This document shows, piece after piece, positions 14,353 to 53,485 of a DNA stretch of 64,000 bases (within the stretch, counting starts at the first letter, position 1; the number at the start of each line of letters is the position of its first letter). Under the pieces are notes generated by a model. That model saw only the letters and a list, made by a program, of their open reading frames with translations, was not told the DNA's origin and made no database searches. The DNA is from Escherichia coli (lineage in GTDB: Bacteria; Pseudomonadota; Gammaproteobacteria; Enterobacterales; Enterobacteriaceae): assembly GCF_030013205.1 (NCBI RefSeq), contig NZ_CP122648.1; one strand, written 5' to 3'. The position numbers and the translations under genes were made by a program.

Positions 14353-15363
14353 TTAGATATGGGTAACGATTTCTTTAATCAGCGGCGGACCTTTAAAAAT
14401 AAAACCAGAATAAATTTGCACCAGTGAGGCCCCCGCAGCAATCTTTTCACGCGCAGCGATAACCGAGTCGATGCCGCCAACACCGATGATCGGTAAGCGA
14501 CCATTTAATTCCTGTGATAAACGGCGAATAATTTCGGTGCTTTTTAACTGAAGCGGACGACCACTTAAGCCACCGGTTTGATCACAATTTTTCATTCCCT
14601 GAACCAGAGAACGATCGAGTGTGGTATTGGTTGCAATAACGCCATCAATATTATGGCGAACTAAACTATCGGCAACCTGGATCAATTCTTCTTCAGAAAG
14701 ATCCGGCGCGATCTTCACTGCGATCGGCACATATTTATGGTGCATCGCTTGCAAATCATTTTGCTTATTTTTAATCGCGGTTAAGAGATCATCCAGCGCT
14801 TCGCCATATTGCAGAGTACGTAATCCCGGTGTATTCGGCGATGAAATATTGATGGCGATATATCCCGCATAAGCATAGATTTTTTCCATACAAATCAGAT
14901 AGTCATCTTTACCCTGCTCCACCGGCGTATCTTTATTTTTGCCGATGTTAATACCCAGGACGCCATCATAATGGGCTTTTTTTACGTTCTCTACGAGGTT
15001 ATCAACGCCAAGATTATTAAAGCCCATACGGTTGATCAAACCTTCGGCATCTACCAGACGAAAGAGACGCGGCTTGTCATTACCTGGCTGTGGACGTGGC
15101 GTGACGGTACCGATCTCGATCGATCCAAATCCCATCGCGCCTAACGCGTCAATGCACTCCCCGTCTTTATCAAGACCGGCTGCCAGACCAAGCGGATTTT
15201 TAAACGTCAGGCCCATGCAGTTAACAGGTTTCGCAGGCACTTTCTGCCGCACCAGTGCTTCAAACGGCGTTCCTGTAATACGGCGTAATTGCTGAAAAGT
15301 AAACTCATGAGCGCGCTCTGGATCGAGCTGGAAAAGGGCTTTACGAACGAAGGGGTAGTACAT
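14353..15363 (-). CDS. pyrD: Dihydroorotate dehydrogenase (quinone) PyrD
   Basis: ORF track 14353..15390 trimmed to ATG at 15363 ([21 protein letters not shown]...); 336 aa; matches E. coli PyrD. Confidence 0.95.
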
Positions 15364-15448
15364 GAACTCTCCTGGATTCCCGGTGTGCAAACCGGGGGCG
15401 TATTATGTGCGAGTTCGGACCAAAAGGGAATTGACCTGTGGCAATAAA

Positions 15449-15464
15449 TAGCAAACGTTTTCTT
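15449..15464 (-). promoter_or_regulatory. PurR-box-like operator upstream of pyrD (TAGCAAACGTTTTCTT)
   Basis: 16-bp sequence matching 14/16 of the recalled PUR box (ACGCAAACGTTTTCTT) about 90 bp upstream of pyrD start; pyrD is a known PurR regulon member. Confidence 0.45.
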
Positions 15465-15599
15465 ATTGCGCTTTTTTTATGCTTTTTTTGGCTTTTCTTC
15501 CTCAGATAAATCATTTCGACTCGCGGGCCACCTCTGTCAGACTGACCGAATTGTTATCAATGTTAACAAAACAAGAACAATTGGTTATAAGGAGAGAGT

Positions 15600-16175
15600 A
15601 TGCGTGTCATCACCCTGGCGGGTAGTCCTCGCTTTCCTTCTCGCTCCAGCTCCTTGCTGGAATATGCGCGGGAAAAACTGAATGGCCTGGATGTAGAGGT
15701 TTATCACTGGAATCTGCAAAACTTTGCCCCGGAAGATCTGCTTTATGCTCGTTTCGATAGTCCGGCACTCAAGACCTTCACCGAACAACTGCAACAGGCC
15801 GATGGACTGATAGTCGCTACACCTGTGTATAAAGCCGCCTATTCCGGCGCGCTGAAAACCCTGCTCGACCTGCTGCCAGAACGCGCTTTGCAAGGCAAAG
15901 TGGTGCTACCACTGGCGACGGGCGGCACGGTGGCTCATCTGCTGGCGGTCGATTACGCCCTTAAACCAGTTTTAAGTGCGCTGAAAGCCCAGGAGATCCT
16001 GCACGGCGTGTTTGCCGATGACTCGCAAGTAATTGATTACCACCACAAACCCCAGTTCACGCCAAATCTGCAAACCCGTCTTGATACCGCGCTGGAAACT
16101 TTCTGGCAGGCATTGCATCGTCGGGATGTTCAGGTTCCTGACCTTCTGTCTCTGCGAGGTAATGCCCATGCGTAA
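15600..16175 (+). CDS. ssuE: NADPH-dependent FMN reductase SsuE
   Basis: 191-aa ORF MRVITLAGSPRFPSRSSSLLEYAREKL...; matches E. coli SsuE; first gene of ssuEADCB operon. Confidence 0.95.
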   Translation: MRVITLAGSPRFPSRSSSLLEYAREKLNGLDVEVYHWNLQNFAPEDLLYARFDSPALKTFTEQLQQADGLIVATPVYKAAYSGALKTLLDLLPERALQGKVVLPLATGGTVAHLLAVDYALKPVLSALKAQEILHGVFADDSQVIDYHHKPQFTPNLQTRLDTALETFWQALHRRDVQVPDLLSLRGNAHA

Positions 16176-19877: not shown

Positions 19878-22490
19878 TCAAGCCAGTGCTTTGGTGATCT
19901 TCTCGTACAGATCGCCAGAGAGATTTTCCAGCCCTTTCAACTGTTCCAGCGCCGCACGCATTTTCTCCTGACGTTTGGCATCATAACGTTTCAGGCGAAT
20001 CAGCGGTTCAATCAGACGTGAAGCCACCTGCGGGTTACGGCTGTTGAGGTCGGTAAGCATTTCCACCAGGAACTGGTAACCGCTGCCATCTTCGGCATGG
20101 AACGCTGCCGGATTGCTGCCCGCAAACGCGCCAATCAACGAACGAATACGGTTCGGGTTGCTCATGGTAAATGAGCGATGCTGCAACAGACCGCGCACCG
20201 TCTCCAGCACATTCGCCGCCGGGCTGGTGGCTTGCAGGATAAACCATTTATCCATCACCAGACCATCCTGATGCCACTTGTCGTCGTACTCCTGCATCAG
20301 CGCGTCACGGCATGGCAGCTGTGCAGCAACCGCCGCAGAAAGCGCTGCCAGCGCATCGGTCATATTGTTCGCTTCGTGGAACTGCTTACTCACCAGCACA
20401 TCAGCCAGATGCGTTTCACCAAAAGCAAGGAAACGCAGGCAGGCATTACGCAGAGTGCGTTTTGCAATATCTTCATGCTCAACGCGGTACTCGCTCTGGT
20501 AATTCGCGTTGTAAATAGCCAGCAGCTCATCCGCCAGTTCAGTCGCCAGAGTACGGGTGAGTGCTTCACGCACTTCGGCAATGGCAATCGGGTCGATGAT
20601 ATCGAACAGTTCCGCCATTTCATTGACGGAAGGCAGCGTCAGAATTTCTGCCGCCAGCGCCGGATCGATTTTTTCATCCAGCAGCACCGCGCGGAAAGCG
20701 TCAGCCACATGCACCGGCAGAGACAGCGGCTGTCCTTGCTGATGACGGGCGACGTTCAGCTTGATGTAGGTTGCCAGCAGGCTTTGCGCCGCATCCCAGC
20801 GGGAGAAATCATTACGCGCATGACGCATCAGGAAGGTCAGTTGCTGATCGCTCCACTTATATTCCAGTTTCACTGGCGCAGAGAATTCGCACAACAGCGC
20901 AGGCACCGGCTGGAAGTAGACATTATCAAAGACAAAGGTCTGTTCCGCCTGGGTGACGTTCAGCACCGAATTGACCGGATGACCGCCTTTCTGCAACGGG
21001 ATCACTTTGCCTTCGTTATCATACAGTTCGATGGCAAACGGAATATGCAGCGGCTGTTTTTCTGCCTGATCCGGCGTAGCTGGCGTGCGCTGGCTGATGG
21101 TCAGGGTGTACTGCTCGGTTTCTGGATTGTAGTCGTCTTTGACGGTCACAACCGGCGTACCGGACTGGCTGTACCAACGGCGGAAATGAGAGAGATCGAC
21201 ATTCGATGCATCTTCCATCGCCTGCACAAAGTCGTCACAGGTCGCTGCACTACCATCATGACGCTCGAAATAAAGCTGCATCCCTTTCTGGAAGTTTTCT
21301 TCGCCCAGCAGGGTGTGGATCATGCGAATCACTTCCGCGCCCTTCTCGTAAACGGTCAGGGTGTAGAAGTTGTTCATCTCAATGACCATATCCGGGCGGA
21401 TCGGGTGCGCCATCGGGCTGGCGTCTTCCGCAAACTGCAATCCGCGCATGGTGCGCACGTTGTTGATACGGTTTACCGCGCGGGAACCAAGGTCAGAGCT
21501 GAATTCCTGATCGCGGAAGACGGTTAAACCTTCTTTCAGGCTGAGCTGGAACCAGTCGCGGCAGGTCACACGGTTACCGGTCCAGTTGTGGAAATATTCA
21601 TGGCCGATAACACGCTCAATATCGAGGTAATCTTTATCGGTGGCGGTGTCGGTACGGGCCAGCACATATTTGGAGTTAAAGATATTCAGACCTTTATTCT
21701 CCATTGCGCCCATATTGAAGAAATCCACCGCGACGATCATATAGATGTCGAGGTCATACTCCAGGCCGAAGCGTTCTTCATCCCATTTCATGGAGTTTTT
21801 CAGCGAGGTCATCGCCCACGGCGCGCGGTCGAGGTTGCCGCGATCGACGTACAACTCCAGCGCCACTTCGCGACCAGAACGCGTGGTGAAGGTGTCGCGC
21901 AGCACGTCGAAGTCGCCTGCAACCAGCGCAAACAGGTAGCACGGTTTCGGGAACGGGTCCTGCCACTGTACCCAGTGACGTCCGTTTTCCAGTTCGCCTT
22001 GCGCAACGCGGTTACCGTTGGAAAGCAGGAAGGGATATTTGGTTTTATCGGCAATAATTTTGGTGGTAAAACGCGCCAGTACGTCCGGGCGGTCGAGATA
22101 GTACGTAATGTGGCGGAAACCTTCAGCTTCACACTGGGTGCAAAGCGCATCGCCTGACTGATAAAGCCCTTCCAGCGCGGTATTCGTCGCCGGGCTAATT
22201 TCATTAACGATCTTAAGCGTAAAACGCTCCGGCAAATTACTGATGACCAGTGCGCCCTCTTCTTCTTTCCAGGCGGTCCACGGCTCATCATTAATATGAA
22301 CAGAAACCAGTTTAAGATCTTCGCCATCAAGACGAAGCGGAGCATCTGATGCACCATGACGGACAGCCTGGCTGACCGCGGTAACGACCGTCTTTTGCGC
22401 GTCCAGGTCAAAGGTCAAGTCAATATCAGTAATCTGGTAATCCGGCGCACGATAATCGTGACGGTATTTGGCTTGTGGCTGTTGAGTCAT
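19878..22490 (-). CDS. pepN: Aminopeptidase N
   Basis: 870-aa ORF MTQQPQAKYRHDYRAPDYQITDIDLTF... with M1 zinc-peptidase motif HEYFHNWTGN; matches E. coli PepN. Confidence 0.96.
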   Translation of the reverse strand: MTQQPQAKYRHDYRAPDYQITDIDLTFDLDAQKTVVTAVSQAVRHGASDAPLRLDGEDLKLVSVHINDEPWTAWKEEEGALVISNLPERFTLKIVNEISPATNTALEGLYQSGDALCTQCEAEGFRHITYYLDRPDVLARFTTKIIADKTKYPFLLSNGNRVAQGELENGRHWVQWQDPFPKPCYLFALVAGDFDVLRDTFTTRSGREVALELYVDRGNLDRAPWAMTSLKNSMKWDEERFGLEYDLDIYMIVAVDFFNMGAMENKGLNIFNSKYVLARTDTATDKDYLDIERVIGHEYFHNWTGNRVTCRDWFQLSLKEGLTVFRDQEFSSDLGSRAVNRINNVRTMRGLQFAEDASPMAHPIRPDMVIEMNNFYTLTVYEKGAEVIRMIHTLLGEENFQKGMQLYFERHDGSAATCDDFVQAMEDASNVDLSHFRRWYSQSGTPVVTVKDDYNPETEQYTLTISQRTPATPDQAEKQPLHIPFAIELYDNEGKVIPLQKGGHPVNSVLNVTQAEQTFVFDNVYFQPVPALLCEFSAPVKLEYKWSDQQLTFLMRHARNDFSRWDAAQSLLATYIKLNVARHQQGQPLSLPVHVADAFRAVLLDEKIDPALAAEILTLPSVNEMAELFDIIDPIAIAEVREALTRTLATELADELLAIYNANYQSEYRVEHEDIAKRTLRNACLRFLAFGETHLADVLVSKQFHEANNMTDALAALSAAVAAQLPCRDALMQEYDDKWHQDGLVMDKWFILQATSPAANVLETVRGLLQHRSFTMSNPNRIRSLIGAFAGSNPAAFHAEDGSGYQFLVEMLTDLNSRNPQVASRLIEPLIRLKRYDAKRQEKMRAALEQLKGLENLSGDLYEKITKALA

Positions 22491-22708
22491 AAATAACCTT
22501 TAGCATCTTTGATAGAGTCTGGTGTTCAGTCTATTCCTGTTGCGTAAATCGCGCTATGCAGAATCTTCATCTTTTCAGGTACAAACGCCTTTATTGCTAC
22601 ATTTTTATAACATACACCGCGTAATGCCATCGACTAGAAAGGTGGCATATGGTGTGATCGGGGTTCAATAAATTGCGAAACAAGGTATACTCCAGCAGTT
22701 CCTGAAGA

Positions 22709-22726
22709 TGTTTATTGTACTAAACG
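22709..22726 (+). promoter_or_regulatory. NadR operator (NAD box TGTTTA-N6-TAAACG) in pncB promoter
   Basis: Inverted repeat TGTTTATTGTACTAAACG about 30 bp upstream of pncB ATG, just downstream of a TATACT -10-like hexamer (22686..22691); pncB is a known NadR target. Confidence 0.5.
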
Positions 22727-22755
22727 CTCCTGTACGAGGACGCTACTGCGCACCT

Positions 22756-23958
22756 ATGACACAATTCGCTTCTCCTGTTCTGCACTCGTTGCTGGATACA
22801 GATGCTTATAAGTTGCATATGCAGCAAGCCGTGTTTCATCACTATTACGATGTGCATGTCGCGGCGGAGTTTCGTTGCCGAGGTGACGATCTGCTGGGTA
22901 TTTATGCCGATGCTATTCGTGAACAGGTTCAGGCGATGCAGTACCTGCGCCTGCAGGATGATGAATATCAGTGGCTCTCTGCCCTGCCTTTCTTTAAGGC
23001 CGACTATCTTAACTGGCTACGCGAGTTCCGCTTTAACCCGGAACAAGTCACCGTGTCCAACGATAATGGCAAGCTGGATATTCGTTTAAGCGGCCCGTGG
23101 CGTGAAGTCATCCTCTGGGAAGTTCCTTTGCTGGCGGTTATCAGTGAAATGGTACATCGCTATCGCTCACCGCAGGCCGACGTTGCGCAAGCCCTCGACA
23201 CGCTGGAAAGCAAATTAGCCGACTTCTCGGCATTAACCGCCGGTCTTGATATGTCGCGCTTCCATCTGATGGATTTTGGCACCCGCCGACGTTTTTCTCG
23301 TGAAGTACAAGAAACCATCGTGAAACGTCTCCAACAGGAATCCTGGTTCGTGGGCACCAGCAACTACGATCTGGCGCGTCGGCTTTCCCTCACGCCAATG
23401 GGAACACAAGCACACGAATGGTTCCAGGCGCATCAGCAAATCAGTCCGGATCTTGCCAACAGCCAGCGAGCTGCACTTGCTGCCTGGCTGGAAGAATATC
23501 CCGACCAACTTGGCATTGCGTTAACCGACTGTATTACCATGGATGCTTTCCTGCGTGATTTCGGTGTCGAGTTCGCCAGCCGCTATCAGGGCCTGCGTCA
23601 TGACTCCGGCGACCCGGTTGAATGGGGTGAAAAAGCCATTGCACATTATAAGAAGCTGGGAATTGATCCACAGAGTAAAACGCTGGTTTTCTCTGACAAT
23701 CTGGATTTACGCAAAGCGGTTGAGCTATACCGCCACTTCTCTTCCCGCGTGCAATTAAGTTTTGGTATTGGGACTCGCCTGACCTGCGATATCCCCCAGG
23801 TAAAACCCCTGAATATTGTCATTAAGTTGGTTGAGTGTAACGGTAAACCGGTGGCGAAACTTTCTGACAGCCCTGGCAAAACTATCTGCCACGATAAAGC
23901 GTTTGTTCGGGCGCTGCGCAAAGCGTTCGACCTTCCGCATATTAAAAAAGCCAGTTAA
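22756..23958 (+). CDS. pncB: Nicotinate phosphoribosyltransferase PncB
   Basis: ORF track 22708..23958 trimmed to ATG at 22756 ([26 protein letters not shown]...); 400 aa; matches E. coli PncB. Confidence 0.94.
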
Positions 23959-49112: not shown

Positions 49113-49271
49113 GATTCCTCCGGTTCCTTAAAGGCAAATTTAGCGGCTGCTGTTGCTGCATTGATTAAGGGCGGCCGTAGCCGCCCTTAGTGCTTGATTA
49201 CAGGACGAAACCTGCAATCTGTCAAGTAAACTCAACAAACTTCGGAATAAAAATCCCGAAGAGTCAGAGAA

Positions 49272-52774: not shown

Positions 52775-53485
52775 AATAAATATCCTCCGGCATAGCCGGA
52801 GGTTTTTCAAATGCGCCTATAAGGCTCTCTTACCAGCCGCGCCCTAACAGGCGCACACGATCTGACATTTGCATCCAACTTCGTTACTTACGGCCCGTAA
52901 ACGGGCTGCCCGGATAGGGAATCGATAACTGCTCTCCCATTTTATCCTCTTCAAGCTGGTGCTTTATGTAATCCTGTATCTTCGCCGTGTTCTTACCCAC
53001 CGTATCGACGTAGTACCCTCTGCACCAGAACTCTCTGTTCCTGTATTTGAATTTCAAATCACCAAACTGCTCGTAAAGCATCAGACTGCTTTTCCCTTTC
53101 AGATATCCCATAAAGCCGGATACGCTCATTTTGGGCGGGATCTCCACAAGCATATGGATATGATCTGCACAGCATTCAGCTTCAAGAATCCGTACGCTTT
53201 TCCACTCACACAGCTTTCTCAAAATACTGCCTATTGCTCTACGCTTCTCTCTGTAGAACACTTGTCTTCGGTATTTTGGCGCAAAAACTATGTGATATTT
53301 ACAGTTCCATCGGGTGTGCGCTAAGCTCTTTTCGTTCCCCATTGGGACCCCCTTTTGATTTCTTGTTTGACACTTGCAGTTGCCAGACCGCAAGGTGTTT
53401 TAACAAATCAAAAGGGGTTTTAATAACTGGCTCAAAGCTGAAAGCTTTCCGGAACCCCCAGCCTAGCTGGGGGTTTTCTGTGCAC
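52775..53485 (-). mobile_element. IS200 insertion sequence (IS200/IS605 family), about 0.71 kb, tnpA only
   Basis: Contains a 152-aa Y1/HuH transposase ORF with the recalled hallmark features of IS200 (twin subterminal GC hairpins at 52784..52802 and 53455..53473, and an RBS-occluding inverted repeat in the tnpA leader). Boundaries estimated (+/- about 20 bp) from hairpin positions and the canonical ~707-bp length; not confirmed by alignment. Confidence 0.7.
52884..53342 (-). CDS. tnpA: IS200 transposase TnpA (Y1 HuH single-strand transposase)
   Basis: ORF track 52884..53393 trimmed to ATG at 53342 preceded by AAGGGGG RBS; protein MGNEKSLAHTRWNCKYHIVFAPKYRRQVFY...ADHIHMLVEIPP...YPGSPFTGRK matches the recalled IS200 TnpA (HuH motif HIH, catalytic Tyr region); 152 aa. 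Confidence 0.9.
   Translation of the reverse strand: MGNEKSLAHTRWNCKYHIVFAPKYRRQVFYREKRRAIGSILRKLCEWKSVRILEAECCADHIHMLVEIPPKMSVSGFMGYLKGKSSLMLYEQFGDLKFKYRNREFWCRGYYVDTVGKNTAKIQDYIKHQLEEDKMGEQLSIPYPGSPFTGRK

What the first reader, a model, noticed from the sequence alone, without database searches (positions are those of the whole stretch)
22686..22726. pncB promoter with NAD-box operator
TGTTTATTGTACTAAACG is a near-perfect NadR-type inverted repeat (TGTTTA-N6-TAAACA). It lies immediately downstream of a TATACT -10-like hexamer and upstream of the pncB start, consistent with NadR repression of the NAD salvage gene.
Basis: partly seen in the sequence, partly recalled or inferred. Interest (0 to 1): 0.2.

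Follow-up and report, generated by a model that had tools for sequence, protein, structure and literature searches.

The report
Known NadR operator at pncB promoter

Summary
The window is E. coli chromosome (ssu–pepN / pncB–asnS–ompF). TGTTTATTGTACTAAACG is at 22709-22726 and matches TGTTTA-N6-TAAACA at 11 of 12 positions. It is the only hit with one mismatch or fewer in 64 kb. TATACT is at 22686-22691 and the pncB ATG at 22756.

Published genome-wide TSS mapping in K-12, whose sequence is identical here, puts the pncB start at window 22698. TATACT is therefore the real -10 (-12..-7), and the box lies at +12..+29 of a 58-nt leader.

The box resembles the K-12 nadA and nadB boxes and is the top hit of a PWM built from other NadR sites. 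Its 12 half-site bases are invariant in 54 of 80 Enterobacteriaceae pncB loci, while adjacent DNA is only about 62% identical. RNA-structure, coding and chance explanations fail. nadR, which carries an HTH domain, is in 5424 of 5426 complete E. coli genomes. The literature gives this consensus and lists pncB as a NadR target.

Verdict: observation confirmed, interpretation supported, already known.

Side observations: a mapped divergent TSS at 22706 on the minus strand uses a -10 (TACAAT) inside the box. The operator has been lost or moved in the Klebsiella, Atlantibacter and Cronobacter-related lineages.

The parts
22650..22672 (+). Conserved upstream promoter block (GGTGTGATCGGGGTTCAATAAAT). 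It contains the weak -35 region: GTTCAA/TTCAAT at about 22663-22669, 16-17 bp before the -10.
   Evidence: Mean pairwise identity is 0.96 among 55 box-bearing sequences, against 0.62 further upstream. The exact -35 hexamer is inferred; the consensus promoter scanner found nothing.
22686..22691 (+). -10 hexamer TATACT of the pncB promoter (-12..-7)
   Evidence: The TSS is mapped 7 nt downstream. The hexamer is invariant in 81 of 81 sequences.
22698..22698 (+). pncB transcription start site (G), giving a 58-nt leader
   Evidence: Kim et al. 2012, Table S1: NC_000913.2 position 989637, minus strand, 180 reads, 5' UTR 58 nt, upstream sequence ...GGTATACTCCAGCAG. K-12 is identical to the window here.
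22709..22726 (.). NAD box / NadR operator TGTTTA-TTGTAC-TAAACG, with half-sites at 22709-22714 and 22721-22726. It lies at +12..+29 relative to the TSS and ends 29 nt before the ATG.
   Evidence: Searches give the sequence and chance estimate. Searches show similarity to the nadA and nadB boxes and the PWM rank. Searches show conservation. Searches give the published consensus.
22727..22755 (+). Remainder of the pncB leader. It includes a block CTCCYGTNAGAGGAYGCTA that is conserved even in species lacking the NAD box. GAGGA lies 15 nt before the ATG.
   Evidence: No conserved RNA structure was found. Function was not determined.
22756..23958 (+). pncB coding sequence (nicotinate phosphoribosyltransferase, 400 aa), the regulated gene
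   Evidence: ORF. Pfam NAPRTase_N plus NAPRTase, E=5.5e-94. RefSeq annotation of a strain 100% identical over the 291-bp query spanning the intergenic region.
22714..22719 (-). TACAAT on the minus strand, inside the NAD-box spacer. It is the likely -10 of a divergent TSS at 22706 (minus strand), annotated as a distal pepN start with a 216-nt leader.
   Evidence: The TSS is listed in two independent data sets: Kim 2012 (5 reads) and Cappable-seq (score 39.4). The -10 assignment is my inference from the sequence.
19878..22490 (-). pepN, the divergent neighbour. Its main TSS maps to window 22597 on the minus strand.
   Evidence: for the gene; for the TSS (K-12 .2 coordinate 989738).

Best explanation
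The 18-bp inverted repeat at 22709-22726 is the NadR operator (NAD box) of the E. coli pncB promoter.

Transcription starts at 22698 from a sigma-70 promoter whose -10 is TATACT (22686-22691). A dimer of the trifunctional NadR protein binds the two TGTTTA-type half-sites at +12..+29 through its N-terminal helix-turn-helix. According to the literature, it does so when NAD is bound as corepressor.

This position overlaps the downstream edge of the RNA polymerase footprint (established knowledge: roughly to +20). Bound NadR therefore most likely prevents open-complex formation or promoter escape. That lowers synthesis of nicotinate phosphoribosyltransferase when NAD is plentiful. Low NAD with normal ATP releases NadR and de-represses the gene.

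Shown here: the sequence, the TSS and -10, similarity to other NadR sites, strong purifying selection on the half-sites, and presence of the repressor gene in the species. Taken from the literature: pncB is NadR-repressed, and the consensus. Inferred: the exact step of transcription that is blocked.
For: The sequence is present at the stated coordinates with 11 of 12 consensus positions, and is the only hit with one mismatch or fewer in the window.

The published consensus is TGTTTA-N6-TAAACA, bound by the NadR HTH. pncB is named as a NadR target in E. coli and Salmonella. It is a predicted NadR regulon member in 6 genomes, against 11 for pnuC, among the Enterobacterales genomes of the RegPrecise-based study.

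The K-12 nadA box TGTTTAGCATATAAAACA and nadB box TGTTTAGTAAATTAAACA have the same architecture. A PWM built from four non-pncB sites ranks this site first in the window at 16.4 bits.

The TSS at 22698 has 180 reads, which makes TATACT the -10 and places the box at +12..+29.

Phylogenetic footprint: the box is at the same distance from the ATG (28-29 nt) in 54 of 80 Enterobacteriaceae loci. All 12 half-site bases are invariant, and the box has 0.983 mean pairwise identity. The segment between the -10 and the box has 0.62.

The 81-bp promoter-operator-leader segment is identical in 5404 of 5425 E. coli genomes. nadR is present in 5424 of 5426 E. coli genomes, and K-12 NadR has an N-terminal HTH_3 domain.
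Against: No binding or expression experiment on this exact DNA could be run or read. The primary Salmonella and E. coli papers (Penfound & Foster 1999; Grose et al. 2005) are not in the held library. The 2025 EMSA study tested only the nadB and nadA-pnuC promoters.

At window scale the match is not overwhelming. 17 of 100 shuffles contain a hit with one mismatch or fewer, and 16 of 200 shuffles reach the PWM score.

The spacer and the 'mismatch' G are also nearly invariant. The right half-site merges into a leader block conserved even in species without the box. Part of the conservation may therefore reflect another constraint.

26 of 80 related species lack the box although they keep the promoter.
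Confidence: 0.9

Rival explanations
1. The palindrome's conserved role is as promoter DNA for the divergent transcript. Its spacer carries TACAAT on the minus strand, the -10 of a TSS at 22706 heading toward pepN. NadR binding would then be secondary or additional, giving a dual-use site.
For: The minus-strand TSS at 22706 appears in two independent data sets. TACAAT sits at -13..-8 of it (sequence). All five spacer variants in 55 sequences keep TAnnnT on that strand. This would help explain why the spacer is conserved as well as the half-sites.
Against: There is no recognisable -35 (sequence). There were only 5 reads in Kim 2012, against 180 for pncB. A/T-rich operators often yield incidental -10-like hexamers. 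This reading does not explain invariance of the outer half-site bases TGTT / AACG. No paper in the library links pepN and NadR.
Confidence: 0.2
2. The inverted repeat acts as an RNA hairpin in the pncB 5' leader, as a stability or translation element, rather than as a DNA operator.
For: The repeat is transcribed (+12..+29) and can form a 6-bp A/U-rich stem.
Against: The hairpin is worth only -2.6 kcal/mol and is absent from the MFE fold of the leader. The leader is less structured than shuffled sequences (z = +1.6). The consensus fold of 81 leaders does not include it and shows no compensatory changes. There is no Rfam family here.
Confidence: 0.03
3. A chance A/T-rich palindrome, or the site of some other regulator, that merely resembles the NadR consensus.
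For: A hit with one mismatch or fewer arises by chance in about 17% of shuffled windows. The -10-to-operator geometry (+12..+29) differs from nadA, where the box is at -54..-37.
Against: It lies in the 58-nt leader of one of the few NAD genes in the genome, where about 0.001 hits are expected in the intergenic region. The half-sites are invariant across 54 species while neighbouring DNA has 62% identity. The literature assigns pncB to the NadR regulon.
Confidence: 0.03
4. The region is coding. The ATG at 22708 is in frame with pncB and would give a 416-aa protein or a short upstream ORF.
For: the ORF listing reports a 416-aa ORF at 22708..23958.
Against: The mapped TSS leaves only 10 nt before that ATG, with no Shine-Dalgarno sequence. 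Most species have TTG there. The distance to the real ATG is 28 or 29 nt depending on species, so the frame is not preserved. All three codon positions are equally invariant in the box, which is not a coding pattern. RefSeq annotates the 400-aa product.
Confidence: 0.01

Closest known systems
NadR operators (NAD boxes) of E. coli / Salmonella nadB and nadA-pnuC
   Same: They share the same 18-bp architecture, TGTTTA-N6-TAAACA, with an A/T-rich spacer. They belong to the same repressor and the same pathway. The Salmonella nadB and nadA promoters bind NadR in EMSA.
   Different: The position relative to the promoter differs. The nadA box is at -54..-37 of its mapped TSS, whereas the pncB box is at +12..+29. 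nadB has a perfect box 6 nt before its ATG, plus a second, weaker box 74 bp upstream; pncB has a single box. The pncB spacer starts with T rather than the G seen in nadA, nadB and niaP, and the last base is G rather than A.
The pncB NadR site of E. coli/Salmonella, as catalogued in comparative-genomic reconstructions of the NadR regulon (Gerasimova & Gelfand 2005; RegPrecise)
   Same: It is the same gene, organism group and regulator. This finding is that site.
   Different: Nothing substantive differs. I could not read the catalogued coordinates themselves, only the summaries.
NiaR and NrtR repressors controlling pncA/pncB in Firmicutes, Pseudomonas, Vibrio and others
   Same: They are functional analogues: a repressor senses an NAD-related metabolite and its operator sits in front of niacin-salvage genes.
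   Different: The protein families, operator motifs and effectors (niacin, ADP-ribose) are unrelated. Neither operates in E. coli.

Membership tests
NadR operator (NAD box) | 18-bp inverted repeat matching TGTTTA-N6-TAAACA | tested here: met
   TGTTTATTGTACTAAACG matches 11 of 12 specified positions.
NadR operator (NAD box) | Similarity to experimentally used or validated NadR sites (nadA, nadB) | tested here: met
   The K-12 nadA and nadB boxes were retrieved and compared. A PWM from four non-pncB sites scores the site at 16.4 bits, the top hit of the window. This is below the training sites (18-28 bits), and 16 of 200 shuffles reach it.
NadR operator (NAD box) | Located in the promoter or leader of an NAD biosynthesis or salvage gene, positioned to interfere with RNA polymerase | tested here: met
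   The downstream gene is pncB (NAPRTase domains; annotation). The TSS is at 22698, so the box is at +12..+29. The blocked step itself is inferred.
NadR operator (NAD box) | Cognate HTH-bearing NadR encoded by the host | tested here: met
   nadR is found in 5424 of 5426 complete E. coli genomes. K-12 NadR has HTH_3 at residues 7-59. The window's own genome outside the 64 kb was not available, so presence there is inferred from the species.
NadR operator (NAD box) | Evolutionary conservation of the half-sites above the neutral background in related genomes | tested here: met
   All 12 half-site positions are invariant in 55 sequences. Box identity is 0.983, against 0.62 for the adjacent segment. 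The box is absent in 26 of 80 loci (lineage-specific), consistent with pncB being a variable regulon member.
NadR operator (NAD box) | Physical binding by NadR, enhanced by NAD, and nadR-dependent repression of the gene in vivo | not testable with these tools
   Only secondary statements were found that pncB is repressed by NadR. Primary papers are not held.
Cis-regulatory RNA element in the 5' UTR | Stable, conserved secondary structure with covariation | tested here: not met
   Leader z-score is +1.6. The hairpin is worth -2.6 kcal/mol. The consensus fold of 81 sequences gives -2.75 kcal/mol with 0 compensatory pairs. There is no Rfam hit in the region.

The most novel reading that the evidence does not exclude
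The NAD box may be a shared operator for two face-to-face promoters. It sits at +12..+29 of pncB and, on the other strand, covers -3..-20 of a mapped divergent start at 22706. That span includes the divergent start's TACAAT -10. The 216-nt-leader transcript from 22706 runs through the pncB promoter toward pepN. NadR would then couple NAD status to a distal pepN transcript, or tune transcriptional interference between the two promoters, whose 5' ends overlap by 9 nt. This link is not mentioned in any paper in the searchable library.
Probability: 0.15. Interest if true: 0.3.

Novelty: already known. Interest (0 to 1): 0.08.

Why it matters
It matters little beyond correct annotation. The site is a textbook example of feedback control of NAD salvage in enteric bacteria. 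Confirming it shows the first-stage reader can recognise operators from raw sequence. The only mildly new angles are the overlap of the operator with a mapped antisense/divergent start site, and the evidence that the operator's position has turned over among Enterobacteriaceae while the promoter stayed fixed.

Tried and rejected
Literature and data sets that could not be used:
- The primary NadR papers and an NAD review (PMC93422, PMC1070365, PMC2738131) are not held.
- The Cappable-seq GTF held as text is cut before the K-12 minus-strand entries. It gave only the pepN-direction TSSs, not an independent pncB TSS.
- The K. pneumoniae sheet of Kim 2012 Table S1 is cut before the pncB region. The promoter used in the box-less Klebsiella clade could not be checked.

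Scans that found nothing at the site:
- The consensus promoter scanner found no promoter in 22400-22900, because the -35 is weak. It was uninformative and is superseded by the TSS data.
- Rfam at gathering threshold has no hit near the site.

Explanations rejected:
- RNA hairpin or structured leader.
- N-terminal extension or uORF from the ATG at 22708, because frame and start codon are not conserved.
- A second upstream NAD-like element, TCAATAAATTGCGAAACA at 22666-22683. It has four mismatches and a PWM score of only 6.6 bits, so it is not claimed.
- Other window hits with two mismatches (20042, 35826, 45351, 59031), and the second PWM hit at 49220 in the rpsA-ihfB spacer, are at chance level.

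Full report
**Where we are.** The window is E. coli chromosome. A 291-bp query spanning the finding matches 5425 of 5426 complete E. coli genomes, and is 100% identical to strain CFSAN018748. The match sits between pepN and pncB. The annotated neighbourhood is ssuEADCB, then pepN on the minus strand, then pncB, asnS, ompF and aspC on the plus strand. K-12 MG1655 is base-for-base identical from the -35 region to the pncB ATG.

**The observation.** The sequence read shows three features:
- TATACT at 22686-22691.
- TGTTTATTGTACTAAACG at 22709-22726.
- The pncB ATG at 22756, opening a 400-aa product that begins [10 protein letters not shown] and carries NAPRTase_N and NAPRTase domains.

The repeat matches TGTTTA-N6-TAAACA at 11 of 12 specified positions. 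It is the only match with one mismatch or fewer in the window. Such a match is expected 0.19 times per 64 kb, and 17 of 100 shuffles had at least one. At two mismatches there are 5 hits against 2.4 expected. The bare match is therefore only suggestive at window scale. What makes it improbable is its location, in a 265-bp intergenic region in front of an NAD-salvage gene, where roughly 0.001 hits are expected.

**Promoter.** The simple consensus scanner finds no promoter here, because the -35 is weak. Experimental data settle the matter. Table S1 of Kim et al. 2012 (PMC3415461) lists a pncB TSS at NC_000913.2 position 989637 on the minus strand. It has 180 reads, a 58-nt 5' UTR, and the upstream sequence ...AAGGTATACTCCAGCAG. 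Converted to window coordinates this is G22698. The NAD box lies at +12..+29 of the transcript, 17 bp after the hexamer and 29 nt before the ATG. The hexamer, within GGTATACTCC, is invariant in all 80 Enterobacteriaceae pncB loci retrieved.

Two NAR 2008 papers give the NadR operator as a palindromic 18-bp TGTTTA-N6-TAAACA recognised by the N-terminal HTH of enterobacterial NadR. They also cite a Proteus niaP site, TGTTTAGTATACTAAACA. I retrieved the K-12 sites for comparison:
- nadA: TGTTTAGCATATAAAACA, 72 nt before the ATG.
- nadB: a perfect TGTTTAGTAAATTAAACA, 6 nt before the ATG, plus a weaker TGTTTAGCAACTGTAACA 74 bp upstream.

A PWM built only from these four non-pncB sites ranks the pncB box first in the window at 16.4 bits. 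The training sites score 18-28 bits, and 16 of 200 shuffles reach the pncB score. The site is thus a good but not perfect member, as expected for a one-mismatch site with a different spacer.

A 2025 mBio study shows by EMSA that Salmonella NadR binds the nadB and nadA-pnuC promoters, and states that pncB is also NadR-repressed. A RegPrecise-based study lists pncB as a predicted NadR regulon member in 6 genomes, against 11 for pnuC.

**Phylogenetic footprint.** Eighty pncB loci from distinct Enterobacteriaceae species (82-98% protein identity) were fetched.
- In 54 of them the box is present 28-29 nt before the ATG, with all 12 half-site bases identical, including the terminal G.
- There are five spacer variants, differing only at spacer positions 7 and 9.
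- Mean pairwise identity is 0.983 for the box, 1.0 for the -10, and 0.96 for the -35 block.
- It is only 0.62 for the segment between the -10 and the box, and 0.62 further upstream (profile).
- Within E. coli, the 81 bp at 22680-22760 are identical in 5404 of 5425 genomes.

The repressor gene is core to the species, present in 5424 of 5426 genomes. K-12 NadR has an HTH_3 domain at residues 7-59, followed by nucleotidyltransferase and kinase-type domains.

**Rivals.**
- *RNA element.* The 93-nt leader region folds worse than shuffled sequences (z = +1.6). The box hairpin alone is worth -2.6 kcal/mol. The consensus fold of 81 leaders has 4 pairs, none in the box and none compensatory. There is no Rfam family here.
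- *Coding.* The ORF lister extends pncB to an in-frame ATG at 22708. That codon is TTG in most species. The distance to the true ATG is 28 or 29 nt depending on species, so the frame is not kept. The TSS leaves only 10 nt of leader before it.
- *Chance.* This is excluded by the conservation pattern.

**Mechanism.** A NadR dimer on +12..+29 overlaps the downstream part of the RNA polymerase footprint (general knowledge: roughly to +20). The most likely effect is exclusion of polymerase or a block to promoter escape; which of the two is inferred, not shown. Operator position is not fixed within the regulon: the nadA box lies at -54..-37 of its mapped TSS. In Enterobacter cloacae-complex loci (L024, L026, L029, L033), a 10-bp shorter gap places the box about 7 bp after the -10, so it starts near +1 or +2. 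That is one helical turn closer to the promoter, while the distance to the ATG is unchanged.

**Things beyond the finding.**

(1) *A divergent start inside the operator.* Two independent TSS data sets report a start on the opposite strand at window 22706. This is K-12 .2 coordinate 989629, plus strand, with 5 reads in Kim 2012 and a Cappable-seq score of 39.4. It is annotated as a distal pepN start with a 216-nt leader. Its -10 would be TACAAT, the reverse complement of 22714-22719, which lies inside the NAD-box spacer. The 5' ends of this transcript and the pncB transcript overlap by 9 nt. NadR bound to the box would occlude this promoter as well. No paper in the library mentions pepN together with NadR. 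This may be incidental initiation at an A/T-rich operator, so I rate a functional role as unlikely but not excluded.

(2) *A leader block that outlasts the operator.* The right half-site merges into a leader block, AAACGCTCCYGTNAGAGGAYGCTA, that is conserved even in the 26 species lacking the left half-site. This probably explains why the 'mismatch' G never reverts. Its function is unknown, and it has no conserved fold.

(3) *Operator turnover.* The Klebsiella/Raoultella/Trabulsiella loci carry an insertion of about 60 bp between the -35 block and the -10. They also have a 2-mismatch palindrome, TGTTCAATATATTAAACT, on the displaced block, scoring 18.4 bits on the PWM. Enterobacter sp. Ag1 (L075) has a perfect TGTTTAGTACTCTAAACA 179 nt before the ATG. 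The Atlantibacter, Franconibacter, Siccibacter, Mangrovibacter and Superficieibacter loci have no site with two mismatches or fewer. This fits the published view that pncB is a variable member of the NadR regulon.

**Verdict.** The feature is an already known regulatory site, so interest is low.

Noticed in passing
window 22706 (- strand TSS); 22714-22719 (- strand TACAAT): A divergent TSS is reported by two published data sets and annotated as a distal pepN start with a 216-nt leader. It lies 8 nt to the right of the pncB TSS, so the two transcripts overlap by 9 nt at their 5' ends. Its likely -10 lies inside the NAD-box spacer, so NadR would occlude it. No paper in the library links pepN and NadR.
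   Followed up: partly
window 22721-22745: The leader block AAACGCTCCYGTNAGAGGAYGCTA is conserved in all 80 species, including the 26 without the NadR left half-site. It contains GAGGA, which lies unusually far (15 nt) from the ATG. It shows no conserved RNA fold. It absorbs the right half-site, which may explain the fixed terminal G of the box.
   Followed up: partly
L024, L026, L029, L033 (about 1431-1472); L035, L039, L048, L055-L059, L061 (about 1340-1365); L075 (1304-1321): The operator has moved while the promoter stayed fixed. Enterobacter cloacae-complex loci have the box exactly 10 bp closer to the -10. The Klebsiella/Raoultella/Trabulsiella loci lack it, and instead have a roughly 60-bp insertion and a TGTTCAATATATTAAACT palindrome on the displaced -35 block. 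Enterobacter sp. Ag1 has a perfect NAD box 179 nt before the ATG. Sixteen other loci have no site with two mismatches or fewer.
   Followed up: partly
window 22666-22683: The promoter spacer contains a lone NadR-like half-site: GAAACA in E. coli, and TAAACA in Citrobacter, Salmonella and Enterobacter. It co-occurs with the downstream box, while box-less lineages have TAATCA. Its centre is 43 bp from the main box. As an 18-mer it scores poorly (6.6 bits), so this may be phylogenetic coincidence.
   Followed up: partly
window 15364-15600: pyrD and ssuE are separated by only about 237 bp. The roughly 7-kb elfADCG-ycbUVF fimbrial operon that sits between them in K-12 MG1655 is absent from this strain, and from CFSAN018748.
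   Followed up: yes
window 53352-53475 (-) and 15358-15431 (-): These are the only two Rfam gathering-level hits in the window: STnc490 Hfq-binding sRNA (146 bits) and the PyrD leader (98 bits).
   Followed up: no
window 49220-49237: The second-best hit of the NadR PWM (TGTCAAGTAAACTCAACA, 15.8 bits, three consensus mismatches) lies just downstream of the 557-aa ORF taken to be rpsA. It is judged to be chance.
   Followed up: no
E. coli genome collection: Four copies of the pepN-pncB intergenic region and three of nadR lie on records labelled as plasmids in RefSeq complete E. coli assemblies. This may reflect mislabelled replicons or large chromosomal captures.
   Followed up: no
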